Of a stretch of 32,000 nucleotides of DNA, positions 2,833-30,022 are shown in pieces. The translations under genes were made by a program, and so were the position numbers. A model generated the notes under the pieces. That model saw only the letters and a program-made list of their open reading frames with translations. It had not been told where the DNA came from and searched no databases. Source of the stretch: Nitrososphaera viennensis EN76 (GTDB taxonomy: Archaea > Thermoproteota > Nitrososphaeria > Nitrososphaerales > Nitrososphaeraceae); assembly GCF_000698785.1 (NCBI RefSeq), contig NZ_CP007536.1, forward strand, positions 2,280,001 to 2,312,000, written 5' to 3'. Every line of letters begins with the position of its first letter. The stretch's first letter is position 1.

Positions 2833-4467
2833 TCAACTCCCCATCGAAAATGGCCCTATTGCAAGGAACGGAAAGAACGTCAGCGCAGTCAAAAGGAACG
2901 TCATGACGACCAGCACGGTTATGAACAGCGGCCCCTGGGTCTTGATGGGCTCGATGACTTCCTTTCTGTCCTTGACGGTGAACGAGCCTGCGATTGCCAG
3001 CATCAGGCCAATAGGGATGTACCTGCCAAGCAGCATCACGATCCCTGTCGAATAGTTCCAGAACGGCGTGTCGGCCGACGTGCCAAAATAGTCAGAGCCA
3101 TTGTTTGCAGCGGCCGACGTGTATTCGTAGAGCGTCTGGGTATATCCGGTAGCCGTGACGGTCTGCTGGCCTTGCGTTCCAAGTACTGTCTGCGCGTCTC
3201 CACTCATAAGCGATATTGCAGTCGGGATGAGTATCAGCGCCGGATGTATCAGAAATATAAACACCGCCAGCTTGATGTCGTGCGAGCTTATCTTCATGCT
3301 CAGGTACTCTGGCGTCTTGCCTACCATCAGCCCGACTATGAACAGGGTCAAGACCACGTAGACTATCATGGTCATCATGCCCGTGCCGTCCGCGCCGGGG
3401 ATTGCCTGGACGAACATGCCAAGGAAGAGGCCGGTAACCGCGCTCGGGGACATGCCTGCAAGTGAGGACGCGACGGCGCCCGTGTTTGTGGATAAGGACC
3501 CTACGTTGAACAGCACGCTTCCAAAGCTGCCGAACCGGGTTTCAAGGAGCGCCGGCCCGCTTTCCTGTACAAGCGCTATTCCGAGCATCACTCCAAACCC
3601 TGCAAGCATTGCTATCAGGATCGAAACGCCCCTTCCCTTCCCGACCAGCTTTGCAAACGCAATCGGGAACGAGAGCGGTATGACAAGCATCAAGAGTGTT
3701 TCAAACATGCTTGAAAGCCCACTTGGGTTTTCAAACGGGTGGGCGGAATTAGCAGAGAAATAGCCGCCGCCATTGCTTCCAAGCTGCTTTATGGATTCGA
3801 GCGACGCCACGGGGCCCATGACCATCGTCTGCTGGCCGCCTTCCAACGTGCCCACGGTTGCCGATGGGGCGAGGGTCTGCGGGACTCCCAGGAACACCAA
3901 GAGCAGGGCAGAGACAAACGCCACGGGAAGTAAAAGCGTCACGATGACGCGGATAAAGTCGACGTAAAAGTTGCCCAGGCCGAAATTTTTCCTGATAAAT
4001 GCCCTGATGAAAGCAAATGCTGCCGCAATGCCGGACGCCGGCGCAACAAACATTATGAAAGTAATTACTGTCATCTGTGAAAATACCGAAAGCTGCTGGT
4101 CGCCTGCATAGTGCTGGAGGTTGGTATTTGTGATAAAAGATGCCGCCGTATGGAAGGCAAGGTCCGGGCTAAATCCATCTAGGCCCTGCGACACCGGCAG
4201 GAGGCCCTGGGCCATCAGCATGACGAATACAAAACCTGCCACTATGGCGTTGGTCACTACAAGGGCAAGGAGGTACTCCTTCCAGCTCATTTGCTGGTCC
4301 TTGTCGATCCCGACCATCTTGTAGAATCCGTTTTCAACCCTTGCCAGCGTCTTTTCCAGCGGCCTGCTCTCGTACGTTATCATCCTTGCCATGTACGTCC
4401 CAAACAGCACCGCCATCGTAACGGTGCTTCCAAGCAGTACTGCCAATTGCACGGTTGGATCTGCCAA
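2833..4467 (-). CDS. kdpA: K+-transporting ATPase subunit A (KdpA)
   Basis: 544-aa polytopic membrane protein. The segment TNTNLQHYAGDQQLSVFSQM and the overall layout match KdpA. TTG start at 4467 with AAGGAGG 12 nt upstream. The stop lies 9 nt before the kdpB ATG. Confidence 0.95.
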   Translation of the reverse strand: MADPTVQLAVLLGSTVTMAVLFGTYMARMITYESRPLEKTLARVENGFYKMVGIDKDQQMSWKEYLLALVVTNAIVAGFVFVMLMAQGLLPVSQGLDGFSPDLAFHTAASFITNTNLQHYAGDQQLSVFSQMTVITFIMFVAPASGIAAAFAFIRAFIRKNFGLGNFYVDFIRVIVTLLLPVAFVSALLLVFLGVPQTLAPSATVGTLEGGQQTMVMGPVASLESIKQLGSNGGGYFSANSAHPFENPSGLSSMFETLLMLVIPLSFPIAFAKLVGKGRGVSILIAMLAGFGVMLGIALVQESGPALLETRFGSFGSVLFNVGSLSTNTGAVASSLAGMSPSAVTGLFLGMFVQAIPGADGTGMMTMIVYVVLTLFIVGLMVGKTPEYLSMKISSHDIKLAVFIFLIHPALILIPTAISLMSGDAQTVLGTQGQQTVTATGYTQTLYEYTSAAANNGSDYFGTSADTPFWNYSTGIVMLLGRYIPIGLMLAIAGSFTVKDRKEVIEPIKTQGPLFITVLVVMTFLLTALTFFPFLAIGPFSMGS

Positions 4468-5126
4468 AACTATTACTGCCTCCTTGTCTGGCTTTGAAGG
4501 GACATCATTATCATCATCGCGTCCTCGGGATCTGACAGTAAAGAAATTCTGCCCAACTAGATCATCTAAACCGCATCTAGAACGTTGAATATTAAAGGGT
4601 TGTGAAAACGAAAATATGGAAAATTTTTATTTTTATTGCCTGATATTGCAAGAAATTATATGGCCTCTAGCTCATGAAAGTGGAGAACTGTCATGTTTCC
4701 AGCTTCTATTTTCAAAAAGGCACTTTTGCTAGGCCATTTTTTGCGGGTTTGCTTATAAAGCGTCACGCTCGATTCTTGCATGCCAGACCGGCTGCGTCAT
4801 ATTTTCAACTTTGGCACAACAATGTGAGATGAATTCCATGATTCTTGGCAGTTTTGATAGGGCTAGCAGTCCCTGTCCCGTTCAGTGGATTTAGTTCAAT
4901 CCTGGCTCAAAACTTGGAAGCGCGCTAAAACGACAAATTGCAGATCGCTATTTATTTCAACATAATGCGCCGCAAACAAAAATAGCCCCGGCGCTTTTCC
5001 TGTGTACAAAAAATATTTCCAGCAAACTCGAAGAGATCCGCATACATCTGTATGCCACTATTAAACATAGAAATATGATAGAACCTGATTCTATCGAAAA
5101 GCCAGATTTGCTGGAACAGGAAAAAC

Positions 5127-5788: not shown

Positions 5789-6319
5789 ATGATACCATGG
5801 CTGGAGATATTGTCGAGCTACATCAGCGGCGCAACTCTTGAAAAATCGCACGACACGGTCAAGGCCGACCAGCCGCTCACGCTGAGCCTCAGCTTCAAGA
5901 TAGACGGGGCGATCCGCGAGGCGTTTTCGCAAAAGAACTGGGAAAAGGCGTACAACAAGCACGACAACGGCTTCCGCATGACTATTGAAGTGGACATTAA
6001 ATCGGGTAGGAAGGTCGTCATGCCGCTCAAGTTCGTGAGAAAAGCCGCGCTGTTCTGGACCAGAAACCCCAAGATCCCGCACAGGATATGGGTGTCAGTC
6101 GTCAAGGACGAGACTCCGTTTTACCCGCTCTCCGAGGACGAGGCAAGGTCGCTCCTGTTCGACGTCAACAAGGTGATAGAGCTAACAGGAACAGAGCTTG
6201 CATCTGGCGCCCACCGGCTGTCTGCCGACATTCGCGTGCAGTGGGGCAAGCACGATTATACAGAGCCGGTGGAAATATCGGCCAGGTCAAACGAAGTAGA
6301 ATTGCGCGCCGTTGCTTGA
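5789..6319 (+). CDS. Hypothetical protein (176 aa)
   Basis: Long ORF with composition like the flanking genes, followed by oligo-T tracts (6323-6350). I recognise no family motif. The start is uncertain. Confidence 0.55.
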   Translation: MIPWLEILSSYISGATLEKSHDTVKADQPLTLSLSFKIDGAIREAFSQKNWEKAYNKHDNGFRMTIEVDIKSGRKVVMPLKFVRKAALFWTRNPKIPHRIWVSVVKDETPFYPLSEDEARSLLFDVNKVIELTGTELASGAHRLSADIRVQWGKHDYTEPVEISARSNEVELRAVA

Positions 6320-6368
6320 GATTTTTTGCCGCATTTTTTTGCATGCTTTTTCACTTTGTATAGATAGA

Positions 6369-6425
6369 GTACTGTGACGTCTCCGGCTCATCTGCCACTT
6401 GGATGAGACTATAACGTTACAGCGC
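6369..6425. repeat. 57-bp direct repeat, left copy (nested hairpin)
   Basis: GTACTGTGACGTCTCCGGCTCATCTGCCACTTGGATGAGACTATAACGTTACAGCGC. It is identical to 9089-9145 except G at 6376 versus A at 9096. Outer stem CTGTGACGT/ACGTTACAG, inner stem CTCATC/GATGAG. Confidence 0.95.
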
Positions 6426-6624
6426 CTGAAGACTACATCCTTTTTTGAAAGACTCTGGGAAGGATAACCAATATTCGGAGCTCAGATAAGAAACAGAAGT
6501 GCTTGACCGATGATTTATTCGACTGTACCCATGCAAGATTTGCAATGGCTCTGTCAGGAGTTCGACGAGTTATCGTGAGCTAAACTCAGGTAATGATGCA
6601 TGCCATCCTGTTAACGATAGCACC

Positions 6625-7281
6625 TCAGGAGTCAGAGTCGTATTTTAGAGATGCACGTCTAAAGAATAAGGCATCCTCATCGTCGCGGTTAATTTCCAAT
6701 ACCTTGTCGAAGCACGCTCGTGCCTCTTTGTATCTTTGTAGATTGAAAAATACTACTCCTTTCTCTTTGAGCAAAGCAGGGCTGCTAGGATTTTCCTTCA
6801 GTTTTTCATCTAATTCAGAAAGTCGGCTCTGTAAGGCATTTTGATACTTTTCGGATGTATTGACGTTGTGGGCATGACGTTTCCGCTTTAATTGCTGCGC
6901 AATCTTTTCTAGCAATGCCGCAGTATCATGATCGTCACGCCACTCGTCTAGTTTGTACTCTATGGACAAGTCGTAGAGAGGCTCATTATGTTCCTTATTG
7001 TTAATGCGATAAGCATCTATTCTTATTTCTGCAAGCTTTGTAGCCGTTTCTTTTTCAGAGATCTGAAATGTTGCACCTGTTGTGTAGGAAGATGCACTAT
7101 AAAACACTCGAGCCGGTATTGAATGGGAATCTAGATAAAATCCAGTGTCTGAGATATAGGACTCTTCTGGCATTATATGTATGATACTTGCTTGTTTCAC
7201 ATATTTAATTACTAGGCCAAGATCTGTTGAGTTCAGACATCGATTTGTGTAAATAAAAAATGAGGGATCGCCATACCTCAC
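6625..7281 (-). CDS. Hypothetical protein with a C-terminal TPR-like repeat
   Basis: 218-aa ORF in the AT-rich cassette. The C-terminal segment ALLKEKGVVFFNLQRYKEARACFDKVLEINRDDEDALFF reads as a TPR motif. It overlaps the upstream gene by 4 bp, suggesting an operon. Confidence 0.6.
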   Translation of the reverse strand: MRYGDPSFFIYTNRCLNSTDLGLVIKYVKQASIIHIMPEESYISDTGFYLDSHSIPARVFYSASSYTTGATFQISEKETATKLAEIRIDAYRINNKEHNEPLYDLSIEYKLDEWRDDHDTAALLEKIAQQLKRKRHAHNVNTSEKYQNALQSRLSELDEKLKENPSSPALLKEKGVVFFNLQRYKEARACFDKVLEINRDDEDALFFRRASLKYDSDS

Positions 7282-7907
7282 AGGGGGCTGTAGCTTGTGA
7301 AGGTAAACTCAACGTAGATGAACGAGCCTGCTTCTACACCTGTATTGCTGTCTGTAAGGGTTGGTGAATCTGTGTGCCCGGGCTGCAATATCTGTGCTTC
7401 CTTGAATGTGTAAGCTCCTACATTCGTCCATATCGAGTGCCAGTCTGGTGGTTCTGAAACGTCAGTTAGCCTTGCGCCGGAGTAGTACCCGGTGTATCCT
7501 GCTCTCATTTCATAATAGACCTGAATCCAAGGGTTGTATTCTTGAGTATAGCCAGTCAGTTGCTGCGGAGTCCCACCATAGGGAATGCTGGTCCAATCTT
7601 TGACAACTCTGTCACACACAAAGATCACATTGCATTGGTAGTGATAGCCTATTCTCGCTTGCAAGGAATCGGTTGGACCTGCTAATGTACTTGGTTGTTT
7701 GTCAAATTTTTGATTCTCTACGGGGTATTCTTCGATTGGCAAATATTCCTTCAGATGGTTCTTGAATTCTTCTTGCGTTCTGACCTTATCGGGTTTCTTT
7801 TCTTCCGCAAAGGCAACGTTCGCGGTAGTTAAAGGCACAGAGAATGCACCTATCAACAGAACCGCAGACATCAACATTGCAATGCGGATCTTGTTGTTCA
7901 AGATCAT
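7278..7907 (-). CDS. Secreted hypothetical protein (signal peptide)
   Basis: 209 aa. The N-terminus MILNNKIRIAMLMSAVLLIGAFSVPLTTANVAFA looks like a signal peptide. The mature part is rich in Tyr, Trp and Gly, and I recognise no family. Confidence 0.6.
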   Translation of the reverse strand: MILNNKIRIAMLMSAVLLIGAFSVPLTTANVAFAEEKKPDKVRTQEEFKNHLKEYLPIEEYPVENQKFDKQPSTLAGPTDSLQARIGYHYQCNVIFVCDRVVKDWTSIPYGGTPQQLTGYTQEYNPWIQVYYEMRAGYTGYYSGARLTDVSEPPDWHSIWTNVGAYTFKEAQILQPGHTDSPTLTDSNTGVEAGSFIYVEFTFTSYSPL

Positions 7908-7965
7908 CGAGTCAAAATATGGTACTCTGCCAATAAACCAGACTCACCTTTAACACAATCCTTGG

Positions 7966-8670
7966 GTGAGCAATGTTTTTAATATCATAAATTTTCTTTT
8001 CCTCGTGTTATCCTATATTACCATTAAATCATTATTGTTGTGCTTACTATTCGTATTATCATTGGATTCTATTGAAGTAATTTATGCTCAAAAAGCTACG
8101 ATTGAAGGAAGATTTGTGAGTCCGGATAACAATTTAGAAATCATTTTTCCTGAAGGATGGACAGGAAATTTTGTCAGATCTCCTGATAATTCCACTAGTA
8201 TCGTGGTGAGCCCGGGTCAGGCTATGGTAAACGAAACTTCGGTAACAACAACTGCAAGCATTTTCGTAAATACTGTGACAAGACAGGTAGCAAACCAGAC
8301 TAACCTCCTCAAGAACATTGATGAAAGTACCTGTAAGGAAAAAACAATAGAGGAAGTCATCATTAATGAAATGCAAGCAACATCCGTAAGTTTGACAGAA
8401 TGTGATGGTTTCCCATTTTATAAGGCGAAGGTCTACTTCTTTCAAACAGAGCAGGATATGATAACATTGGGTTATGTCGCACCATCAGACTCGGAATTTG
8501 AGAAACATCAATCTGATTTTGAATCTTCCGTCAATAATTTACATATAGCCAACACTATAAGCGCGCCCACAATACCTGAATTTCCGTATGTATTCATAGT
8601 GACTATGCTAGCTCTTGGGCTTATGATTGCTCTACGATCATTTGTCAATGGGTCTCCCCGGCCCTGCTAG
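7966..8670 (+). CDS. PEF-CTERM (archaeosortase-type sorting signal) secreted protein
   Basis: Hydrophobic N-terminus. The C-terminus reads ...APTIPEFPYVFIVTMLALGLMIALRSF..., that is, a PEF motif, a TM helix, then a basic residue. GTG start, and the exact start is uncertain. Confidence 0.6.
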   Translation: MSNVFNIINFLFLVLSYITIKSLLLCLLFVLSLDSIEVIYAQKATIEGRFVSPDNNLEIIFPEGWTGNFVRSPDNSTSIVVSPGQAMVNETSVTTTASIFVNTVTRQVANQTNLLKNIDESTCKEKTIEEVIINEMQATSVSLTECDGFPFYKAKVYFFQTEQDMITLGYVAPSDSEFEKHQSDFESSVNNLHIANTISAPTIPEFPYVFIVTMLALGLMIALRSFVNGSPRPC

Positions 8671-8779
8671 GCAGGTATGTATAGTATACGATCCTAAATT
8701 ACGGTGAATTCTAAGATTATCTTTACCTAGAATGTGATACTATAATTTTTATATATCCAAAAATAGATACAACGTGCTC

Positions 8780-9040
8780 ATGAAGTCGTTTGATCCAGAT
8801 ATACGCGTACTTTGCCGCTTAGCGGAAGCCTTCAGCAACGCGATATCTCTGAAGAAAACGCATTTGCACTTGGCAAGCCGACTAAGGTGGGATCTTTTTA
8901 ACAAGTATATTGAATGGCTATGCGCAAACAATTACGTACTAACAGACGGGAACACATACTGCTTAACCTCTTCCGGAAAAGAAATGTTTGCCAAATGCTT
9001 AGAATTTAATGTGTATCTTTACGGACAACGTCGAACATGA
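8780..9040 (+). CDS. Small winged-helix DNA-binding protein
   Basis: 86 aa. Its pattern (..ISLKKTHLHLASRLRWDLFNKYIEWLCANNYVLTDGNTYCLTSSGKEMF) parallels the wHTH protein at 21164-21469. TTTATATAT box at 8749-8757, 23 nt before the ATG at 8780. An in-frame GTG at 8774 is also possible. Confidence 0.5.
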   Translation: MKSFDPDIRVLCRLAEAFSNAISLKKTHLHLASRLRWDLFNKYIEWLCANNYVLTDGNTYCLTSSGKEMFAKCLEFNVYLYGQRRT

Positions 9041-9088
9041 TCTGAACCTTCCTTTTTTTGCTAGGACAACTTCCAACTTGGACAGCCC

Positions 9089-9145
9089 GTACTGTAACGT
9101 CTCCGGCTCATCTGCCACTTGGATGAGACTATAACGTTACAGCGC
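9089..9145. repeat. 57-bp direct repeat, right copy (nested hairpin)
   Basis: GTACTGTAACGTCTCCGGCTCATCTGCCACTTGGATGAGACTATAACGTTACAGCGC, matching 6369-6425 at 56 of 57 positions. Confidence 0.95.
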
Positions 9146-9203
9146 TATAGATGGCCAATATTTATTAGTTGGTTTGTCCCTTAATCATTAGGTTACTAAC
9201 TAA

Positions 9204-9695
9204 ATGCAAAAGAGCAATCAAGCTAACCTTGGATTGACGGTTAAAAATACTGTTATTATGATGCAAAAGGCATTTGATTTTGATCTCCAAAAGAGCGTGG
9301 GGATCAGCTGGAGTCAAGCAAAAGTGATCATGACGCTTGCGCAAAAGAACGGGATGGCCCAGAAGGAAATTGCAGACGGCATCTGCATCGAGGCCCCGAC
9401 ACTCGTCCCGATAATAGACAAGATGGAGCGTGAAGGGCTAGTCGAGAGGAGGCAGGACGAGGCCGACCGGAGAAACAACAGGGTATACCTTACTGAAAGA
9501 TCGCGGTCGCTTCAACATGCCATAGATGAAAGTATCGCACGGGTACGAAAGGTGGCGTACAAGGGCATAGCAAAAGACGATCTGGACACGACCAGGCACG
9601 TTTTGGACATGATCTCCAAAAACGTCGCCGACTACCTAGAGTCGCAGCAAAAGACCCCTGTCGCAGAGATCCAACAAAAAGCCGCAAGGCAGTGA
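9204..9695 (+). CDS. MarR family transcriptional regulator
   Basis: 163 aa with a winged HTH typical of MarR: SQAKVIMTLAQKNGMAQKEIADGICIEAPTLVPIIDKMEREGLVERRQDEADRRNNRVYLT. Confidence 0.9.
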   Translation: MQKSNQANLGLTVKNTVIMMQKAFDFDLQKSVGISWSQAKVIMTLAQKNGMAQKEIADGICIEAPTLVPIIDKMEREGLVERRQDEADRRNNRVYLTERSRSLQHAIDESIARVRKVAYKGIAKDDLDTTRHVLDMISKNVADYLESQQKTPVAEIQQKAARQ

Positions 9696-12665: not shown

Positions 12666-12760
12666 GCTGTTCAATCAGGCGATCGTCGAAGATAAAGTTG
12701 TCGATGAGTGCCGAATTCCAAGAAGTGTTATAGCATGTGCTAGGTTGTGATAAATAAAAT

Positions 12761-12785
12761 GAGAAAAAGAAAGGAAAAGGGGAGG
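12761..12785 (-). terminator. Polypyrimidine/oligo-T terminator after amoA
   Basis: The minus strand reads CCTCCCCTTTTCCTTTCTTTTTCTC immediately after the amoA stop codon (12787-12789). It shares a 16-mer with the tract at 13990-14005. Confidence 0.5.
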
Positions 12786-12786
12786 T

Positions 12787-13437
12787 TTAGTCCCACTTGC
12801 TCCACGCGGCCATCCATCTGTATGTCCACGTGTTAAGTTTCGCACCCAACGCAGTCATGGGTACTGTTAGCACTGCACTAGCGCCAGAACCTAGCGCCAC
12901 AGGCGAGTTGTAAAACTTACCTACCTGGGGCTCTATAGGCGTCATGTATGCAGGCAGCGTCGGTCTCGGATACTTGAAGGCTACCTCAAGCGGGTCCCTG
13001 ACGAGCAACAGGTTGACCATGTTGAACAGCGGGAAGGATAGGCCAACCAGCGTGCCGCCAATGATGATGACAGCGTGCTTGTTGCGTCTTGTCGCCCAGT
13101 ACGTGAGGTCCAACAGCATTGCCGACGGAATCCACACTGGCACCACGATGAAGTCGTATGGATAGCCAAGTGCAAACCATGCACCCTTTGCGACCCATGT
13201 GTAGATAGTCATGATTGTGGCGTAGTATGTGGCTGTACCCGGAACGCCTGTGAACAACATGTAGTATACCGCACCCACAGCGAGCATCGTCGACTGTGAC
13301 ACGGAGAATACTACGAAGGATGTCCACATCCAGTCTGTGTAGAAGATGTAGTCTCCTGCGTTGATGGTTAGCAGCGTGCTGTTGACAGCAACGACTACTA
13401 TGAATATGTAGTGCGTTGTACGTCTAAGCCAGACCAT
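12787..13437 (-). CDS. amoA: Archaeal ammonia monooxygenase subunit A
   Basis: 216 aa. MVWLRRTTHYIFIVVVAVNSTLLTINAGDYIFYTDW...GVPGTATYYA...KGAWFALGYPYDFIV...KYPRPTLPAYMTPIEPQVGKFYNSPVALG is near-collinear with the thaumarchaeal AmoA sequences I recall. Confidence 0.97.
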   Translation of the reverse strand: MVWLRRTTHYIFIVVVAVNSTLLTINAGDYIFYTDWMWTSFVVFSVSQSTMLAVGAVYYMLFTGVPGTATYYATIMTIYTWVAKGAWFALGYPYDFIVVPVWIPSAMLLDLTYWATRRNKHAVIIIGGTLVGLSFPLFNMVNLLLVRDPLEVAFKYPRPTLPAYMTPIEPQVGKFYNSPVALGSGASAVLTVPMTALGAKLNTWTYRWMAAWSKWD

Positions 13438-13903: not shown

Positions 13904-13989
13904 TCTGCTATAGAATTAGGGCATGCCTTTTTAAATTTTGCTGTTGGCAGGTATGGCAAGGCCAGCTTGCGCGGATTTCGTATGTGTGT

Positions 13990-14033
13990 GAAAAAGAAAG
14001 GAAAAAGGGGGGAGGAAAAAGGGAGAAGGGGGG
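13990..14033 (-). terminator. Polypyrimidine/oligo-T terminator after the PEF-CTERM gene
   Basis: The minus strand reads CCCCCCTTCTCCCTTTTTCCTCCCCCCTTTTTCCTTTCTTTTTC. It contains the same CCTTTCTTTTTC core seen after amoA. Confidence 0.5.
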
Positions 14034-14042
14034 TTTGTTTGG

Positions 14043-15212
14043 CTAGAGCGCGTTGTTTCTTCCGCCAAACATGCTTCCCATGTTGCCCTTGAACCTGGTC
14101 ATGGCCACGATGAATGCAACCGCTATTGCGGCGATTATCGCTGCACTTACCGGGAACTCGGGCACGACTACTACGTTAAAGTCCGCTTCCTCTGTAAACG
14201 CGCCGGTGCTGACTCCACTCACCGAGTTGAGAATCACGCTGATGCTGACCGGTCCTCCGTCGCCCATCTTGACCGTCTGGGTTCCTGACGAACTAGAGCC
14301 TGTAAACGCGTTCTTTTTGTCGTAAATGACATTTCCGCTCTTGTCCGTCACGGTAAAGTCATAGCTGACCCTCTGAAGCCCCTGTCCGTTATTATCTGCA
14401 AAGCTGACGGTGAACGTCGTGTTGCCATTTGGCTGTATGTCGACCGGGTTCCAGCTCAGAGTCACGTCATAGGTTCCGCGCCGCGTGGACTGCTGGAGCG
14501 GGGGCTGCGGGATCTCTTCGACTGACTGTGGAGCCGGCGGCTGGCCCGTGCCTGTCGCAAGCAGTTCATACTTGAACTGGGTCGGCGGCTGGCCTGATGC
14601 CACCTCTACAAACGTCTCTGCCTTGACCGGGAACGGGAATTCGTTGAGTATCCACATCTTGTTGTCCACGCCCTTGTGCCATCCCACCACTGTCGTGTCA
14701 TACGTGCCTGCTGGCACCGTGACCTGTTGTGACCCCTGCGGCTTGAGCTCTTCTCCACCTATTGCAGCTATCTTGCCCCACGAGCCGGCTTTGAGCGAAA
14801 GGGGCTTTGATACCGATGTGAACGCTTCGAGCCACTGGAGCGAGCGGCCATAGCCTCCGACGAAAACCCTCATGTCGTCCGGCACCTGCGACCCTCCGCC
14901 GAGGGCTGCAAGGTTGTCTCCAAGTATGAGCGTGCCATTAAAGACCTCTCCTTTGTATTCAACAAACGTCGGCGCCACCCAGTTGCCGTCGGCATTCTTT
15001 TCCTTGAAGTAGATCGTCATGTCAAACGGCGCGCCGTTGTTGGTGTCATATTCCTGTATCCTGTATTTTACATACATGTCCTGTTTGGCGCCTTCGCCTA
15101 CATACCAGAGGTCGTCGACCGCGTAAGCGCTCTTGACGCTCATAACACTGGTCAGGACTCCGAAAACCAGTACTGCAGCTATCGCCGAGAAGGCGAAATA
15201 CCTGGACTCCAT
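14043..15212 (-). CDS. Secreted PEF-CTERM protein (signal peptide, two extracellular domains, archaeosortase-type anchor)
   Basis: I chose the start at the ATG at 15212 (MESRYFAFSAIAAVLVFGVLTSVMSVKSAYA, a signal peptide). The 93 codons upstream of it in the ORF track overlap a plus-strand ORF and a promoter-like AT-rich region. A Pro/Gln linker (GQPPAPQSVEEIPQPPLQQ) precedes a beta-rich domain. The C-terminus VVVVPEFPVSAAIIAAIAVAFIVAMTRFK is a PEF motif, a TM helix and basic residues. Confidence 0.8.
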   Translation of the reverse strand: MESRYFAFSAIAAVLVFGVLTSVMSVKSAYAVDDLWYVGEGAKQDMYVKYRIQEYDTNNGAPFDMTIYFKEKNADGNWVAPTFVEYKGEVFNGTLILGDNLAALGGGSQVPDDMRVFVGGYGRSLQWLEAFTSVSKPLSLKAGSWGKIAAIGGEELKPQGSQQVTVPAGTYDTTVVGWHKGVDNKMWILNEFPFPVKAETFVEVASGQPPTQFKYELLATGTGQPPAPQSVEEIPQPPLQQSTRRGTYDVTLSWNPVDIQPNGNTTFTVSFADNNGQGLQRVSYDFTVTDKSGNVIYDKKNAFTGSSSSGTQTVKMGDGGPVSISVILNSVSGVSTGAFTEEADFNVVVVPEFPVSAAIIAAIAVAFIVAMTRFKGNMGSMFGGRNNAL

Positions 15213-15335
15213 TATAATGGAAGTAAAATTTGCAACCTGATAAATGTTTATTTTTAGCCTCTTGCCCGCCGCTTTGCGGCGGCGACGATAAATAAATAAG
15301 TGGAGCACTTCAAGACAGATGCAGCAGAGAGACAT

Positions 15336-15497
15336 ATGTGCAAATGTGCCAAGGTCACGTTCTATGAAGTAGAGTTCAAGCTCTCGGGGTTGAGGGTCAT
15401 CCCGACGCACAAGAACTGCGGCGAGGGGCTGAACGACGACCAGTTCAACTCGTTCGAGAAGGAGCTCGTCAAGTACTGGGGCTTTGAGCAAAAGTAG
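15336..15497 (+). CDS. Small Cys-containing hypothetical protein (53 aa)
   Basis: MCKCAKVTFYEVEFKLSGLRVIPTHKNCGEG... An ATAAATAAATAAG TATA-like stretch at 15285-15299 precedes it. The GTG at 15300 given in the ORF track would sit inside the promoter. Confidence 0.4.
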   Translation: MCKCAKVTFYEVEFKLSGLRVIPTHKNCGEGLNDDQFNSFEKELVKYWGFEQK

Positions 15498-15628
15498 TGT
15501 GCTTCTTCTCTATTTATATTTGAAATTCTGTCACTGTTTAAATGCTCCAATAGCTGCCCTTGGCTCATATACGCCAACTTTATTAATGCCGGAGCAAAAT
15601 GCGTCCTTGGTGGTTTTGAGTGACCAAA

Positions 15629-15874
15629 ATGTATAGCGTAACGATCGAAACGACAGGCGTGGATGCAGCTGAAGCCAAGGACTGGGCAAACGAGCTCGCA
15701 AACGTGTATGCCGATATGGCAGTTTCGGACGTAAACGTCTCTGGCAACAAGATCTCATTCAAGGCTGGGATGACCGGCATGGATGACACCGAGCCGGACG
15801 ACATCAAGATGAAGCTTGATGAGTACGTCACGATGCACGAGGCGTTCAGCGTCAAGAAAATAGACATCCGCTAG
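15629..15874 (+). CDS. Small acidic hypothetical protein (81 aa)
   Basis: An ORF with even codon usage, followed by CCTTTTTTCTTGTTTTC (15886-15902). I recognise no family. Confidence 0.5.
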   Translation: MYSVTIETTGVDAAEAKDWANELANVYADMAVSDVNVSGNKISFKAGMTGMDDTEPDDIKMKLDEYVTMHEAFSVKKIDIR

Positions 15875-15986
15875 GCCAATTCCGGCCTTTTTTCTTGTTT
15901 TCATTCTCCACCGATGCATACAAATCATAACCGATTGTTACTAATATAGAAATAGAAATTTTGCAAAGTGTGGGGGTAATCAACAC

Positions 15987-16235
15987 ATGACTTGCAAGGG
16001 TATATGCATCCGTCACAAGGCTCAAAAGCCAGTCGGCTCGGGCAGGTACGCCAGCGGGCAGAAGAGGTGCCAGATCTGCGAGATATTCATCAAGTGGGAC
16101 GGCCTCTGGTGCCCGTGCTGCGGGTACAGGCTCCGCACAAAGCCAAGGAACCTGAAGTACAAGGCAAAGCTGCGCGCCAAGGCCGCCAAGATGGTCGAGG
16201 AAGCGCCGCCGGTCCTGACAGTCAGAAGAAAGTAG
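15987..16235 (+). CDS. Zinc-ribbon protein with a basic C-terminal tail (82 aa)
   Basis: Cys pattern C-x3-C ... C-x2-C ... C-x-C-C (MTCKGICIRH..KRCQICEIFIKWDGLWCPCCGYRLR) followed by a Lys/Arg-rich tail. An AATATAGAAATAG TATA-like element lies upstream. Confidence 0.6.
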   Translation: MTCKGICIRHKAQKPVGSGRYASGQKRCQICEIFIKWDGLWCPCCGYRLRTKPRNLKYKAKLRAKAAKMVEEAPPVLTVRRK

Positions 16236-22694: not shown

Positions 22695-23936
22695 TCACAA
22701 GACGTGATCATTTCCATTCTCCTCCTCTTCCTTCTGCCTCGGCGCAATTCTGGCCTGCCTTGTAGTAGCAAACCAAATTCCTATCGCCACCGCCGGAACG
22801 ATCACGGCTGCTGCAACCATGAATGGCAGGCCGCTGACGCCCACCGCGATTCCTTGGCTGAACACCGCCGCGCCAAAGCTCGGGCCGATTATCTGCGATA
22901 TGCCTGCAACAGACTGGCCTATGCCAAGCGTGGCGCCCTGCTTGTCTGCAGCCGTCCTGAGTGAGATCAAGGTCGTTGCTGATGCCGCAGTCAGTCCCAT
23001 CCCGAGGGGCACAAACGTAGAGCTGACTATTAGCATCGTAAGGTCCTGCGCAAAGCCAAGCAACGCAAGGCCTGCCGCCAGCGACGCGGCGCCTGCCACA
23101 AAGAGCGCCTGCGGCGTATACCTCTTTGACAGCCTGGGCACTAGGACGCCCTGCACCGCAGACACCACCCCACCTATGTAGAGGAACAGCAAGCCGACCT
23201 GGAAGGGCCCATAGCCAAACACTTTTTGAAGCCAGGGAGTCGACGTGCCCTCCATGATGTAGAACCCGAGCATCGTTATGAAATACGCCGCAAGGAGCAG
23301 CTTCATCCCGGGGCTTTTTGCGACGTGCCTGAACGACTGCAGGAACGAGTCTTTTGTCCTTGCGCCTCTGGATTCTGGCATCCTGAAATAGCCAAGCGCA
23401 AAGTTGGAGAAGGCAAGCGCGGCTGCTAGAAACGCCGGGACCGCGTACCCAAACGCGCTGCTCAGCGTGCCTCCCATCGCGGGGCCGAGGATGAGGCCCA
23501 TGCCAAACGCCGCGCCCAAACTGCCCATCTGCGCCATCCTGTTCTGTGCAGTAGTAATGTCTGACGCGTACGCCATTGCCACGGGGACTGTTGCGCCCAT
23601 TGCGCCTGCCGCCACCCTTGCAAGGAGCAAGAGCGCGATGTTGTTGGCAAGGCCAAAGAGCAGAAACGACGCTCCCGAGCCTGCAAGGCAGACGAGCATT
23701 ATCTTTTTCCGGCCCCGCCTGTCGCTCAGGGCTCCCCATACTGGCGTAAAGGCGAACTGGGCGACGCTGTACGACGTCAGCAAGAGCCCGTAAACCACCG
23801 GCGAGGCGCCAAGGCTTGTCGCATAAAAGTAAAGGTATGGAAGAACCATCGCAAAGCCGAGGAAATCCAGGAATACCGTGACAAAGAGCACGGAAAACAC
23901 CGATGATGACTGGCTTGCCGATGTTGCTGTTCTCAT
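22695..23936 (-). CDS. MFS transporter (12-TMS, drug/tetracycline-efflux-like)
   Basis: 413 aa. It has the MFS motif A-like loop GALSDRRGRKKIM between TM2 and TM3 and is hydrophobic throughout. Confidence 0.9.
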   Translation of the reverse strand: MRTATSASQSSSVFSVLFVTVFLDFLGFAMVLPYLYFYATSLGASPVVYGLLLTSYSVAQFAFTPVWGALSDRRGRKKIMLVCLAGSGASFLLFGLANNIALLLLARVAAGAMGATVPVAMAYASDITTAQNRMAQMGSLGAAFGMGLILGPAMGGTLSSAFGYAVPAFLAAALAFSNFALGYFRMPESRGARTKDSFLQSFRHVAKSPGMKLLLAAYFITMLGFYIMEGTSTPWLQKVFGYGPFQVGLLFLYIGGVVSAVQGVLVPRLSKRYTPQALFVAGAASLAAGLALLGFAQDLTMLIVSSTFVPLGMGLTAASATTLISLRTAADKQGATLGIGQSVAGISQIIGPSFGAAVFSQGIAVGVSGLPFMVAAAVIVPAVAIGIWFATTRQARIAPRQKEEEENGNDHVL

Positions 23937-24252
23937 TGCCTCGTAGCCCTCCTATGGAGGCCTTCTCTGCCGTACCAGTACAGTGCAAATGCCTTCCATG
24001 ACGAGTCTATGGCCGCGTATAACACATCGAAGCTATAGTTTTGGCCGCCGGCACTGCTGCCGGTGCAAAATTTTTCGTTCATGGAAGAAAAAGAAACGGC
24101 AAATGCCTAAAAGACTGGCTCACTGTACGTGATCACATATTGTGAGTAATAAGAAAATTATTAGTCAGTTAATTCTTTCATGCCGTTTTTGCAGCCTGTT
24201 TGAAAGAACTAGTTGGTCTGAATGCCACTTTACACCGGATAAAGATTTTCTT

Positions 24253-24272
24253 GTATAACGATATGGTTATAT
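24253..24272. promoter_or_regulatory. 7-6-7 inverted repeat overlapping the TATA box of the FMN-reductase gene
   Basis: GTATAAC-gatatg-GTTATAT. The proximal half-site ends exactly 24 nt before the ATG at 24296. The overlapping sequence GGTTATATAACC (24265-24276) is a perfect 12-bp palindrome. Confidence 0.5.
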
Positions 24273-24295
24273 AACCTCTAGATTATATTAGATGC

Positions 24296-24922
24296 ATGGA
24301 CATGGAAAGAAACATGCAATCAACAATTAACATCCTCGGCGTGGCAGGCAGCATGCGCTCTGGCTCGTACAGCACCGAGGCGCTGAAAATGGCGCTAGAG
24401 CTTGCCAAAAAGCACGGCGCAGAGGTGCGCCTGCTTGATCTGAGCAAAACAGTATTGCCGCTGCGTGACCCAAGCGCGCCAGCGTCAGAGCAGGTTGAAG
24501 CGGCGGCCAAGGCAGTAGCCTGGGCTGATGCGCTCATACTTGCTTCGCCGGATTATCACGGCTCGATGTCCGGTACAATCAAAAATTTCCTAGATCACTT
24601 TTACAAAGAGTTTGCCGGCAAGCTCTTTGGCTATATTGTGGCATCGCATGAAAAAGGCTTGACTGCAATGGACCAGATGCGCACTGCGGTGCGCCAGTGC
24701 TGTGGATGGAGCATGCCTTATGGCGTTTCAATAAATGGCGAGCAGGATTTTGCAAACGGTCAGATCGCAAACGCAGAAGTGTCAAGGCGCCTAGAGATGA
24801 TGTCCCGCGACTTGGTGGTATATGGCAGGCTGATGAGGGGGCAGTTTGCCCGCGACCTTGGGTCAAGCGAGCCATACACGTTTGCGGCCCACTACCGGGT
24901 TTTGCTAAAATCAGCAAGTTGA
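24296..24922 (+). CDS. NAD(P)H-dependent FMN reductase family oxidoreductase
   Basis: NILGVAGSMRSGSYS...ADALILASPDYHGSMSGTIKNFLDH is the flavodoxin-like FMN_red pattern. Confidence 0.85.
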   Translation: MDMERNMQSTINILGVAGSMRSGSYSTEALKMALELAKKHGAEVRLLDLSKTVLPLRDPSAPASEQVEAAAKAVAWADALILASPDYHGSMSGTIKNFLDHFYKEFAGKLFGYIVASHEKGLTAMDQMRTAVRQCCGWSMPYGVSINGEQDFANGQIANAEVSRRLEMMSRDLVVYGRLMRGQFARDLGSSEPYTFAAHYRVLLKSAS

Positions 24923-29122: not shown

Positions 29123-29560
29123 CTAGTTTTCCGGTATAACGCCTTCGCCCGTGAACAGCTTTTTCGCCTCGTCCACCGGCAGGTCGGCGCTCGGCAGGAT
29201 GATGTCTGACCTTACAATCTCTCCGGGTTCTACTGCCTTGCCGTACTTTATCGTGATCTGGTTGAGCTCGGCAAGTTTCTTTTTGAAACCTGCATCGTCT
29301 GCCTTTTCGCTTGCGACCATTTCAACAAGCTCGCTGTCGATGTCGTTAAGGCGCTTGAGCGTCCGTGCGTCGACCGTGAACTGGCCGTGGCCCATTATGC
29401 GCACGACTTTTTTCGTAGCCGGCGCTGCCTTGGCTTTCTTGGGGCGGGACTTGTGCGCGAGTCGAATGATTTTTTTTGCATGCCTTGGCTTGCTGCTCTT
29501 TGCGACGGCCTTGGCCCTCTTGCGCGCCTTGGCCTTCGCCTTGGTCATCTTCTTTTTCAT
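29123..29560 (-). CDS. PspAA-like (PspA-associated) domain protein with a Lys/Ala-rich N-terminal tail
   Basis: The C-terminal roughly 95 aa are VVRIMGHGQFTVDARTLKRLNDIDSELV...SDIILPSADLPVDEAKKLFTGEGVIP. This matches the RIMGEGQ...LN.lD...SD.ILP.aD...E....eGlIP consensus I recall for PspAA. The N-terminal roughly 50 aa are KAKAKARKRAKAVAK...KKAKAAPATKK. Confidence 0.55.
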   Translation of the reverse strand: MKKKMTKAKAKARKRAKAVAKSSKPRHAKKIIRLAHKSRPKKAKAAPATKKVVRIMGHGQFTVDARTLKRLNDIDSELVEMVASEKADDAGFKKKLAELNQITIKYGKAVEPGEIVRSDIILPSADLPVDEAKKLFTGEGVIPEN

Positions 29561-29728
29561 TGTATGGCTTCTGATAGTATTGTTTCATATGCACTCCGAC
29601 TTTAACTTTGCTAATTCTATCTCAATATTGCAATGTATTGTAATTTTTTTGCATTTCTCTCATGATTTCTTTATTAATCGAGGCTACCGGAAGCAAATAC
29701 AATCGGCAATTGACGTATTTTACTATAT

Positions 29729-30022
29729 TTACCTGTTGGACCTGCGCCACTCATGCTCGTCCGGCGGGCCGTGGTCCTCTTTTTTTCTGTAATAGCCCCA
29801 GAAGAGAAGGATCCCTCCGCCTATCGCCATGGCGATTACAAACTTTTCATTGTTTATCTCGGCATTGACAAAGTTGTCCAGGTAGAATCCGAACGTGTAT
29901 GCGGTGGATATGAGAAACAGGTCGCGCAGCGCGATTATTGCAGCGGCAATGAGAAAGAGTATTCCCATGGCAGTCATCCAGTTGCGACCTCGGCGCGTTC
30001 TTTCTTCTTTCCACCGGCCCAT
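29729..30022 (-). CDS. Small membrane protein (2-3 TM)
   Basis: 97 aa with hydrophobic segments MTAMGILFLIAAAIIAL and FVIAMAIGGGILLFWGYY and charged termini. It lies between the F420 reductase gene and the PspAA-like gene on the same strand. Confidence 0.5.
   Translation of the reverse strand: MGRWKEERTRRGRNWMTAMGILFLIAAAIIALRDLFLISTAYTFGFYLDNFVNAEINNEKFVIAMAIGGGILLFWGYYRKKEDHGPPDEHEWRRSNR

What the first reader, a model, noticed from the sequence alone, without database searches (positions are those of the whole stretch)
6369..9145. 57-bp near-identical direct repeats bracket a roughly 2.7-kb AT-rich four-gene cassette with no integrase
The 57-mer GTACTGTRACGTCTCCGGCTCATCTGCCACTTGGATGAGACTATAACGTTACAGCGC occurs at 6369-6425 and again at 9089-9145, in the same orientation, with one difference (G at 6376, A at 9096). 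The DNA between the copies (6426-9088) is visibly AT-richer than both flanks.

That DNA carries four ORFs with no housekeeping signature: a TPR-tailed protein, a signal-peptide protein, a PEF-CTERM protein and a small wHTH protein. Outside the repeats, core genes (rpoL and tfs on the left, marR-MFS on the right) resume at normal composition.

Long direct repeats around compositionally foreign DNA are the classic attL/attR footprint of site-specific integration. However, no integrase, transposase or replication gene lies inside. Three explanations are possible:
- It is a decayed integrated element.
- It is a cassette mobilised in trans.
- It arose by capture or duplication through recombination between copies of a dispersed hairpin element.

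The right-hand copy ends 16 bp before the TATA-like box of marR.
Basis: partly seen in the sequence, partly recalled or inferred. Interest (0 to 1): 0.7.

Follow-up and report, generated by a model that had tools for sequence, protein, structure and literature searches.

The report
Hairpin-bounded foreign gene cassette, Nitrososphaera viennensis
In the soil ammonia-oxidising archaeon Nitrososphaera viennensis, four AT-rich foreign genes sit between two near-identical 57-base hairpin sequences; every relative examined lacks both the genes and the hairpins, so this is a recent insertion with no mobility gene of its own, and how it moved is unresolved.

Summary
A 57-nt direct repeat (6369-6425 and 9089-9145, one mismatch) brackets 2,663 bp of GC 0.41, against 0.545 for the rest of the window.

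The window is N. viennensis (CP104300.1:2277779-2309778). In seven related Nitrososphaera loci, including N. evergladensis SR1, the 176-aa ORF is followed directly by marR. The spacer there is 80-105 nt and shows no similarity to the 57-mer. So both repeats arrived with the cassette. They are not a duplicated host attB.

A second, 88%-identical cassette (Logan contig L016) carries a diverged copy of the hairpin at the same end. Homology stops exactly at the hairpin, and the DNA beyond it is unrelated.

The cassette encodes a TPR protein, an exported ORFan, a PsbP-fold PEF-CTERM surface protein and a small wHTH protein. No recombinase lies in the cassette or in the 32-kb window.

No other copy of the hairpin turned up in metagenome, viral, phage or plasmid collections. 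Its copy number in the source genome could not be tested.

Best reading (about 0.4): a non-autonomous unit whose ends are the hairpins, moved in trans, most like IS200/IS605-type PATEs. A TATAGAT motif sits beside the left end and at the right end. The mechanism is not proven.

The parts
5789..6319 (+). Conserved 176-aa ORF of unknown function; left host flank
   Evidence: 1,103 homologues, 95% identical in N. evergladensis. In all relatives it lies directly upstream of marR. GC3 0.73.
6358..6364 (+). TATAGAT in the left flank, 4 nt before the left 57-mer; candidate target or transposon-adjacent motif
   Evidence: The same 7-mer directly follows the right 57-mer. The chance of any match of 7 nt or more between the two 20-nt flanks is 0.014-0.036, or 0.003 if the match must abut the right repeat. 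Suggestive only.
6369..6425 (+). Left 57-nt hairpin repeat (nested hairpin 6372-6422)
   Evidence: G6376 gives a G-U pair on the + strand but a C.A mismatch on the - strand.
6426..6624 (.). 199-nt non-coding stretch inside the left repeat
   Evidence: Only ORFs of 42 aa or less lie wholly within it. No Rfam match. Too short to hold an integrase remnant.
6625..7173 (-). TPR-tailed protein (182 aa; a 218-aa form is possible from GTG 7281)
   Evidence: TPR_1 E 2.5e-7 at the C-terminus. The N-terminal ~100-aa domain has only three weak relatives among 1.84 billion representatives. The AF2 model is unusable (pLDDT 51). GC3 0.39.
7278..7907 (-). Exported 209-aa ORFan
   Evidence: Only one 90%-identity cluster among 5.8 billion proteins: N. 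viennensis plus L016. No Pfam, NCBIfam, PHROG, PADLOC or PDB match.
8005..8670 (+). Signal peptide + PsbP/Mog1-like domain + PEF-CTERM anchor protein (221 aa)
   Evidence: Family alignment with invariant PEF and two invariant Cys. AF2 pLDDT 80.8. Best PDB fold matches are CyanoP/PsbP, E 2.6e-4. Relatives are 27-39% identical; the closest clusters checked that carry names are from Nitrososphaera MAGs.
8780..9040 (+). Small winged-helix protein (86 aa; HTH_45, Sso10a/ArnR1-like)
   Evidence: PF14947 E 1.8e-10. Sso10a family E 1.1e-8. The closest relatives are 45-56% identical; the two that carry names are from Nitrosotalea MAGs.
9089..9145 (+). Right 57-nt hairpin repeat (nested hairpin 9092-9142)
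   Evidence: Homology with the second cassette L016 ends here: 79% identity within the repeat, 37% beyond it.
9146..9152 (+). TATAGAT directly after the right 57-mer; candidate element-terminal motif or second copy of a target duplication
   Evidence: Homology with the relatives' spacers resumes at 9153 (GGCCAATRTTTATTAG).
9153..9203 (+). Conserved marR promoter/operator block; right host flank, left intact by the insertion
   Evidence: A (G)YCAATGTTTATTAG... block is present in all seven relatives at the same distance from the marR start.
9204..9695 (+). marR; first host gene on the right
   Evidence: PF01047 E 4.3e-15.

Best explanation
The segment from about 6365 to 9145-9152 is a recently acquired, non-autonomous insertion in the spacer between a conserved 176-aa ORF and marR of N. 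viennensis. Both 57-nt hairpins are the ends of the inserted unit. They are terminal direct repeats, not a duplicated host attachment site.

The unit encodes only cargo: a TPR protein, an exported ORFan, a PsbP-fold PEF-CTERM surface protein and a small wHTH protein. It must therefore have been moved by an enzyme supplied in trans that recognises the hairpin ends.

Its architecture is closest to IS200/IS605-type 'peel-and-paste' elements and their gene-less derivatives (PATEs):
- A stem-loop near each end, both in the same orientation.
- No terminal inverted repeats.
- A short motif (TATAGAT) next to the left end in the flank and again as the last bases of the right end, like the TAM/TEM pair of that family.
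- An empty site with no hairpin at all.

Shown: the insertion, its boundaries to within about 10 nt, its foreign composition, the absence of the hairpin at empty sites, a second diverged copy in another context, and the absence of any recombinase in cis.

Inferred: that the hairpins are the recombination substrates, that the reaction uses single-stranded DNA, and which enzyme does it.
For: 1. Seven orthologous loci have the ORF and marR adjacent. Their spacers are 80-105 nt with no similarity to the 57-mer. The window's spacer is 107 nt without the insert.

2. L016 carries a cassette 88% identical over 1.9 kb, with a homologous hairpin at the same end. Identity drops from 79% to 37% exactly after ...AGCGC, and the flank is not the marR promoter block. 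So the hairpin travels with the cassette and marks its edge.

3. The limits of the repeat coincide with the foot of the hairpin (stem 6372-6422 within repeat 6369-6425), as expected if the structure itself is the unit being recognised.

4. All four stem substitutions seen (one between the two copies, three in L016) keep G-U/G-T pairing on the + strand and give A.C mismatches on the - strand. As RNA, the L016 + strand still folds into the nested hairpin (-17.1 kcal/mol, z -3.4) while its - strand loses the outer stem.

5. TATAGAT lies at 6358-6364 and 9146-9152, asymmetric with respect to the hairpins. Homology with the relatives resumes at 9153. PMC10055086 describes LE and RE stem-loops, a TAM beside the LE, a similar TEM at the RE boundary, no target duplication, and flexible spacing that allows capture of extra DNA.

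6. IS200/IS605-family elements exist in thaumarchaea, including N. viennensis (PMC6563490).

7. No recombinase lies in the cassette or the window. The cassette is not among the six published EN76 integrated elements.
Against: - The published IS census of EN76 lists only 'aa2' (second-ORF) matches for IS200/IS605 (TnpB, from my own knowledge of ISfinder ORF numbering) and no 'aa1' (TnpA-type) match. So no HUH transposase is known in this genome.
- No other copy of the hairpin was found anywhere, whereas PATE families are usually multi-copy.
- Left and right ends identical over 57 nt is more than is usual for LE versus RE.
- The left end of the L016 cassette is not available, so the two-hairpin architecture rests on one instance.
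- The TATAGAT match could be chance (P about 0.003-0.04). In L016 the bases after the hairpin (TCGTATA) do not repeat it.
- The + strand bias of stem substitutions is only 4 of 4 (P about 0.06). Paired positions are not significantly more conserved than unpaired ones (3/30 versus 7/25, P 0.16).
- With DNA parameters the outer stem of the L016 hairpin is not predicted.
Confidence: 0.4

Rival explanations
1. Classical site-specific integration. A small circular element carrying the 57-mer as attP recombined with an identical 57-bp attB that already lay in this spacer in the N. viennensis lineage, giving attL and attR. The integrase was lost or is supplied by another element, as in CIME-like or satellite elements.
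For: Direct repeats around compositionally foreign DNA are the standard footprint (PMC6563490). The 57-mer's GC (0.526) is closer to the host's (0.545) than to the cassette's (0.409). L016 shows the hairpin at the cassette edge, as an attP-derived core would be. EN76 carries several integrase-bearing elements that could act in trans.
Against: None of the seven empty sites has anything resembling the 57-mer, and spacer lengths fit zero copies, not one. The 57-mer is not a tRNA or any Rfam family. Most thaumarchaeal att sites are shorter than 26 bp. There is no room for an integrase remnant. L016's flank is unrelated, so a second, different locus would also need the same long attB.
Confidence: 0.2
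2. Two-step origin. A solo hairpin element (MITE- or attC-like) inserted first. Later a circular molecule made of the cassette plus one hairpin joined it by homologous or structure-specific recombination at the hairpin. This is the logic of integron cassette insertion at attC, or of an IS26 translocatable unit. The result is a two-site array lacking its recombinase, like a CALIN.
For: The hairpin has the general layout of an attC: an outer stem with AAC...GTT (CTGTAAC/GTTACAG), an unpaired internal loop, an inner stem with a bulged A, a small apical loop, and a length of 57 nt. Two such sites less than 4 kb apart meet the formal CALIN spacing criterion (PMC9668308). The single mismatch between the copies fits recent recombination or gene conversion.
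Against: The R boxes match RYYYAAC/GTTRRRY (consensus quoted from my own knowledge) at only 5 of 7 positions each, and the left copy has GAC, not AAC. Four genes in two orientations with their own promoters are not a typical cassette. No IntI lies nearby. A survey of all archaeal genomes found integrons only in MAGs, so not in the EN76 isolate genome. No solo hairpin was seen anywhere.
Confidence: 0.15
3. Composite transposon. Two copies of a 57-bp palindromic MITE-like element, each with 9-bp inverted arms, bracket the genes. The whole unit was moved by a DDE transposase acting on the outermost arms, which duplicated a 7-bp target TATAGAT.
For: Each 57-mer carries inverted arms CTGTRACGT/ACGTTACAG. 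TATAGAT is present on both sides. EN76 has 26 IS-related ORFs, mostly IS6. Empty sites without hairpins fit this model too.
Against: The left TATAGAT is separated from the repeat by 4 nt (AGAG), whereas the right one abuts it. The inverted arms are subterminal by 7 nt on one side and 3 nt on the other, and the terminal bases do not match. No other copies of the supposed MITE were found.
Confidence: 0.1
4. No dedicated mobility. A foreign DNA fragment was fixed by illegitimate or homologous recombination. The 57-mer is a functional hairpin of the cassette, either an RNA structure or a palindromic operator for the cassette's wHTH protein, and was duplicated locally during or after insertion.
For: No recombinase and no other copies were found. 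The substitutions are compatible with a + strand RNA fold. Inverted repeats are typical operators for dimeric wHTH proteins. The cassette genes are intact after about 11% divergence and show mixed synonymous and non-synonymous change.
Against: This does not explain why the duplication is exactly the hairpin, placed at exactly the two edges of the foreign DNA. It does not explain why homology with L016 ends at the hairpin in another context. An oligo-T run (9052-9058) precedes the right hairpin and similar runs (6323-6353) precede the left one, so the hairpins are probably downstream of transcription stop signals.
Confidence: 0.1

Closest known systems
IS200/IS605-family elements and their non-autonomous derivatives (PATEs)
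   Same: A stem-loop near each end, both on the same strand. No terminal inverted repeats. A short motif flanks the left end and a similar one ends the right end. The empty site has no copy of the end sequences. The family can carry passenger DNA and be moved by TnpA in trans (PMC10055086). The family is present in thaumarchaea.
   Different: No Y1 TnpA is known in EN76. There is no tnpB and no omega-RNA. The ends are identical over 57 nt and the hairpin is longer and nested. The cargo is four genes. Only one locus is known, plus one diverged copy, rather than a multi-copy family.
Integron gene cassettes / CALIN (clusters of attC sites lacking an integrase)
   Same: Structured recombination sites of about 57-141 nt in direct orientation bracket promiscuous genes, with no recombinase inside. 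The sites have an AAC...GTT outer stem, an internal loop, a bulged base and a small terminal loop. They are less than 4 kb apart.
   Different: The R-box consensus is only partly met. The cargo is four genes in both orientations with their own promoters. There is no intI or attI. EN76 was not called in the archaeal integron survey. The empty site lacks any attC/attI-like site.
Cryptic integrated elements of Thaumarchaeota and cis-mobilizable elements (CIMEs: att-flanked islands without recombination genes)
   Same: Foreign, AT-rich DNA bounded by direct repeats in an intergenic site. The size is near the lower limit reported (2.6 kb). It carries a small wHTH gene.
   Different: The published thaumarchaeal elements were found through their integrases and mostly have att sites shorter than 26 bp, often in tRNA genes. 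Here there is no integrase, a 57-bp hairpin repeat, and no attB in relatives. The locus is absent from the EN76 list.
MITE-bracketed composite transposons and IS26 translocatable units
   Same: Two copies of a short repeat in direct orientation mobilise the DNA between them. A possible 7-bp duplication is present.
   Different: The candidate duplication is offset by 4 nt on one side. No transposase family can be matched to the arms. No other copies of the repeat were found.

Membership tests
Tyrosine-recombinase integrated element (attL/attR) | Direct repeats flank the inserted DNA | tested here: met
   57 nt, 56/57 identical.
Tyrosine-recombinase integrated element (attL/attR) | An integrase gene lies within the element, intact or as a remnant | tested here: not met
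   No Pfam recombinase in any of the four ORFs. Only 199 nt and 48 nt of non-coding DNA remain.
Tyrosine-recombinase integrated element (attL/attR) | The empty site carries one copy of the repeat (attB) | tested here: not met
   Seven orthologous spacers, none with similarity to the 57-mer. The closest available relatives are other species, so a lineage-specific attB is not fully excluded.
Tyrosine-recombinase integrated element (attL/attR) | The target is a tRNA or other conserved gene end (usual, not obligatory) | tested here: not met
   ARAGORN and Rfam find nothing at the repeats.
IS200/IS605 / PATE | Subterminal stem-loops at both ends, in the same orientation, without terminal inverted repeats | tested here: met
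IS200/IS605 / PATE | No target duplication; instead a motif beside the left end (TAM) and a similar one at the right boundary (TEM) | tested here: inconclusive
   TATAGAT at 6358-6364 and 9146-9152 fits, but may be chance. It is not repeated after the L016 hairpin.
IS200/IS605 / PATE | A cognate Y1 HUH transposase (TnpA) is available in the host | not testable with these tools
   The genome could not be scanned. The published census lists only 'aa2' (second-ORF) matches for this family in EN76.
IS200/IS605 / PATE | Several copies with the same ends in the genome | not testable with these tools
   The single genome-collection scan did not return the source genome. No copies were found in 190 kb of loci or in the other collections.
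Integron cassette / CALIN | attC with R''/R' boxes RYYYAAC / GTTRRRY (consensus from my own knowledge) and L boxes with extrahelical bases | tested here: not met
   CTGTAAC and GTTACAG match at 5 of 7 positions each. The left copy has GAC. One bulged A is present. The attC covariance model itself was not available.
Integron cassette / CALIN | At least two sites less than 4 kb apart | tested here: met
   The spacing is 2,720 nt. The criterion is quoted.
Integron cassette / CALIN | IntI and attI nearby, or detection by the standard survey | tested here: not met
   No integrase in the window. The survey of archaeal genomes found integrons only in MAGs.
MITE / composite transposon | Terminal inverted repeats at the very ends, plus a target duplication abutting both ends | tested here: inconclusive
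   The 9-bp arms are subterminal (7 nt and 3 nt from the candidate ends). The 7-bp match is offset by 4 nt on the left.
PEF-CTERM protein family (third cassette gene) | C-terminal P-E-F motif, transmembrane helix and basic tail, with an N-terminal signal peptide | tested here: met
   These features are invariant or conserved across 22 family members. The NCBIfam model did not fire.

The most novel reading that the evidence does not exclude
The two cassettes (N. viennensis and L016) are the first sightings of a class of hairpin-ended, gene-carrying, non-autonomous mobile cassettes in Nitrososphaerales. This would be an archaeal counterpart of integron cassettes or cargo-bearing PATEs. The cassettes would shuttle surface-protein genes between soil ammonia oxidisers as single-stranded DNA, using a host- or element-encoded HUH or tyrosine recombinase that has not yet been linked to them.
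Probability: 0.2. Interest if true: 0.7.

Novelty: new variant of a known kind. Interest (0 to 1): 0.45.

Why it matters
N. viennensis is the model soil ammonia-oxidising archaeon. Its integrated elements were catalogued by searching for integrases, so elements without one, such as this, were missed.

A cassette that moves surface and secreted protein genes without its own recombinase, bounded by structured ends, would point to a route of gene flow in Nitrososphaerales that is not yet described. It would also give a concrete, testable substrate: a 57-nt hairpin with a defined empty-site sequence.

If instead it is a one-off relic, it is still a cleanly delimited example of recent gene gain next to an intact marR promoter, but of local interest only.

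Tried and rejected
- **Genome-collection scan** with the inner 21-mer. It returned only a chance match in Paenisporosarcina and not the source genome.
- **Metagenome scans** with two relaxed hairpin patterns: 0 hits.
- **Viral-contig scans**, two DNA patterns and one with the wHTH protein: nothing. The PEF family alignment was too divergent to scan with.
- **Whole cassette and the 57-mer alone** against phage and plasmid records: no match.
- **Covariance model** of the hairpin over 193,650 bases of Nitrososphaera loci: only the known copies.
- **Rfam** at the gathering threshold and at a permissive threshold, and ARAGORN: no RNA family or tRNA at the repeats. I considered C/D-box sRNA, BHB intron and dif/Xer (IMEX) readings by eye and dropped them, because the motifs are absent.
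- **Concatenated query** of three cassette proteins in the search for homologous proteins: no hits, not even to the proteins themselves, so that search was wasted. The same query worked in the representative search.
- **Context of a PEF-family homologue** (L021-L023): normal GC and no hairpin repeats, so hairpin-bounded cassettes are not a general feature of that gene family.
- **A hidden HUH motif in the TPR protein** (HAH at the linker). It is not conserved in the N-domain relatives, and the AF2 model is too poor to use (pLDDT 51).
- **PHROG and PADLOC**: no viral or defence hallmark.
- **Locus tags** in the literature: no paper found. A MITE/Nitrososphaera paper was irrelevant.

Full report
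**1.

The 57-mer occurs at 6369-6425 and 9089-9145 in direct orientation, with a single difference (G6376/A9096). Its halves, searched with up to three mismatches, occur nowhere else in the window and in none of 100 shuffles.

The interior (6426-9088) has GC 0.409 against 0.545 for the rest of the window. The lowest other window of equal length has 0.501. GC3 of the four inner genes is 0.36-0.50, against 0.60-0.76 in the flanking genes. The tetranucleotide profile is further from the window average (0.275) than any other stretch (maximum 0.237).

Each 57-mer is a nested hairpin. The outer stem is CTGTRACGT/ACGTTACAG, followed by an internal loop, then an inner stem CTCATC/GATGAG with a bulged A, then a 7-9-nt loop. 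As RNA the energy is -20.9 kcal/mol (z -3.6 to -4.2); as DNA it is -10 to -12 kcal/mol. The repeat is only 3 nt longer than the hairpin on each side.

**2. Where the window comes from**

Exact protein look-ups place the window in Nitrososphaera viennensis. It corresponds to CP104300.1:2277779-2309778. The cassette proteins are AIC16995-AIC16998 of strain EN76.

The left flank holds kdpABC, tfs, rpoL and a conserved 176-aa ORF. The right flank holds marR, an MFS transporter, a radical-SAM gene, tRNA-Pro and amoA. No integrase, transposase or replication protein is encoded in the cassette, in the rest of the 32-kb window, or in the 4 kb further left.

The published census of integrated elements in EN76 lists NitVie-E1 to E5 and Nvie-Pro1 at other coordinates. 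This cassette is not among them. That census also notes that most thaumarchaeal att sites are shorter than 26 bp (PMC6563490).

**3. Empty sites**

The 176-aa ORF has more than a thousand homologues. I examined seven loci: N. evergladensis SR1, two NCBI MAGs, two JGI contigs and Logan contigs. In every one the ORF is followed directly by marR-MFS-radical SAM.

Their ORF-marR spacers are 80-105 nt and show no similarity to the 57-mer on either strand (best local score 6-8). All share a conserved block (G)YCAATGTTTATTAG... upstream of marR. In the window that block begins at 9153, 7 nt after the right repeat.

Removing everything from the left to the right 57-mer leaves a 107-nt spacer in the window, within a few nt of the relatives' range. 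Keeping one 57-mer would give 164 nt. So the insertion is real and specific to the N. viennensis lineage, and most simply it brought both hairpins with it.

**4. A second cassette**

The 209-aa exported protein is an ORFan. Among 5.8 billion proteins it has one cluster. One member of that cluster comes from a 1,960-nt Logan contig (L016, ERR14788032) that is 88% identical to window 7250-9146.

Identity by region:

| Region | Identity to L016 |
|---|---|
| Three coding regions | 89-91% |
| Intergenic DNA | 72-77% |
| Hairpin | 79% |
| 51 nt beyond the hairpin | 37% |

The hairpin therefore marks the edge of a unit that lies in at least two different genomic contexts. L016 ends before the left end of its cassette, so its left boundary is unknown.

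The two copies in N. viennensis differ at 1 of 57 positions, while the orthologous hairpins differ at 10 of 55. So the two copies were either duplicated or co-inserted recently, or they are being homogenised.

**5. Does the structure matter?**

Four stem substitutions are seen: one between the two copies and three in L016. All are transitions that keep G-U (or G-T) pairing on the + strand and produce A.C mismatches on the - strand. The inner stem is invariant. As RNA, the L016 + strand folds into the same nested hairpin (-17.1 kcal/mol, z -3.4), while its - strand loses the outer stem.

This hints that the + strand acts in single-stranded form, but the numbers are small. Four of four has a chance of about 0.06. 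Substitutions at paired versus unpaired positions (3/30 versus 7/25) give P = 0.16. With DNA parameters the outer stem of L016 is not predicted.

**6. Is the hairpin a dispersed element?**

No further copy was found in:
- JGI metagenome contigs, with two patterns tolerant of the differences seen in L016.
- IMG/VR viral contigs.
- Phage and plasmid records.
- A covariance-model search of 193,650 bases of Nitrososphaera loci.

It did not return even the two known copies, so the source genome is masked in, or absent from, that collection. The copy number in N. viennensis itself therefore remains untested. This is the main gap.

**7. What the cassette encodes**

- **6625-7173 (-):** a protein with a TPR tail and a ~100-aa N-domain that has only three weak relatives. 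Its model is unusable.
- **7278-7907 (-):** the exported ORFan.
- **8005-8670 (+):** a member of a family whose named members come from Nitrososphaera MAGs. It has a signal peptide, two invariant cysteines and an invariant PEF-CTERM anchor. Its model (pLDDT 80.8) is closest to CyanoP/PsbP-type folds.
- **8780-9040 (+):** an 86-aa HTH_45/Sso10a-like winged-helix protein.

None of these matches viral or defence families. Compared with L016, the three genes present on that contig (all but the TPR gene) are intact, with both synonymous and non-synonymous changes: 29/22, 22/37 and 7/16 codons. They are therefore coding but fast-evolving. Relatives of the PEF protein elsewhere sit in DNA of normal GC without hairpin repeats.

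**8. How it most likely works**

These facts must be explained together:
- There is no hairpin at empty sites.
- There are two near-identical hairpins in direct orientation exactly at the edges.
- There are no terminal inverted repeats and no recombinase in cis.
- A second copy lies elsewhere.
- TATAGAT occurs 4 nt before the left repeat and directly after the right repeat, with host homology resuming right after the second TATAGAT. The chance of this is 0.003-0.04.

This combination is what IS200/IS605-type elements look like. They have stem-loops in both ends on one strand, a motif adjacent to the left end, a similar motif ending the right end, no target duplication, and tolerance of extra captured DNA. 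Gene-less derivatives (PATEs) are moved by TnpA in trans (PMC10055086). The family occurs in thaumarchaea.

I therefore favour a non-autonomous, hairpin-ended unit moved in trans, probably as single-stranded DNA (confidence about 0.4).

Against this, the published EN76 census lists only 'aa2' (second-ORF) matches and no 'aa1' (TnpA-type) match for this family. No other copies are known, and the motif is not repeated in L016.

**9. Rival explanations**

- **Integration at a lineage-specific 57-bp attB, with the integrase lost or supplied in trans (0.2).** This is weakened by the empty sites and by the length and non-tRNA nature of the repeat.
- **A two-step, integron- or IS26-like route through a solo hairpin (0.15).** The hairpin resembles an attC in layout and size. 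But it meets the R-box consensus (quoted from my own knowledge) only in part, the cargo is atypical, and the archaeal integron survey found integrons only in MAGs (PMC9668308).
- **A MITE-bracketed composite with a 7-bp duplication (0.1).** The duplication is offset by 4 nt and the inverted arms are subterminal.
- **A non-mobile insertion whose hairpin is an RNA or operator element duplicated locally (0.1).** This does not explain the coincidence of hairpins with both edges.

**10. Verdict**

The insertion and its foreign origin are firmly established. The attL/attR interpretation is only partly supported.

The feature is a small, previously uncatalogued, hairpin-bounded gene cassette in a model archaeon. 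It is a new variant of known kinds of non-autonomous mobile DNA, known so far from one complete and one partial instance. Interest is moderate (0.45). It would rise if more copies, or a cognate enzyme, were found in complete Nitrososphaerales genomes.

Noticed in passing
window 12760-12785 and 13987-14012: A 26-nt purine-rich direct repeat (TGAGAAAAAGAAAGGAAAAGGGGAGG, 88% identical). Each copy lies just 3' of a minus-strand gene: amoA (12787-13437) and the ORF at 14043-15491. On the coding strand it reads as a C/T-rich run, possibly a shared terminator or 3'-UTR motif.
   Followed up: no
L011 15286-16134 (N. evergladensis SR1): A Phage_integr_3 integrase gene with several unannotated small ORFs lies about 3.5 kb beyond the radical-SAM gene. 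In N. viennensis, tRNA-Pro and amoA occupy that position. So a different island sits next to the same conserved gene block.
   Followed up: no
L011 5076-6685: kdpA is split into two ORFs (322 + 225 aa) in N. evergladensis but is intact (544 aa) in the window. This may be a frameshift or a pseudogene.
   Followed up: no
window 4251-5000, 15501-16000, 23751-24500, 29251-30000: Other short AT-rich dips (GC 0.41-0.48). The first is the long kdpA-tfs spacer. None is bounded by long repeats.
   Followed up: partly
window 8005-8670 and alignment A4: The PEF-CTERM protein belongs to a family of ~225-aa proteins with no Pfam or NCBIfam match; its named members come from Nitrososphaera MAGs. The family has a signal peptide, two invariant cysteines and a predicted PsbP/Mog1-like fold.
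   Followed up: yes
window 9153-9203 and the relatives' spacers: The marR upstream block (CAATGTTTATTAG, then TTAG..N..CTAACTAA just before the ATG) is conserved across all seven relatives. It is probably the promoter plus an autoregulatory operator.
   Followed up: partly
Genome-contig collection: The exact 21-mer scan failed to return the N. viennensis genome even though the window holds two copies. The source genome is therefore masked or missing in that collection.
   Followed up: partly
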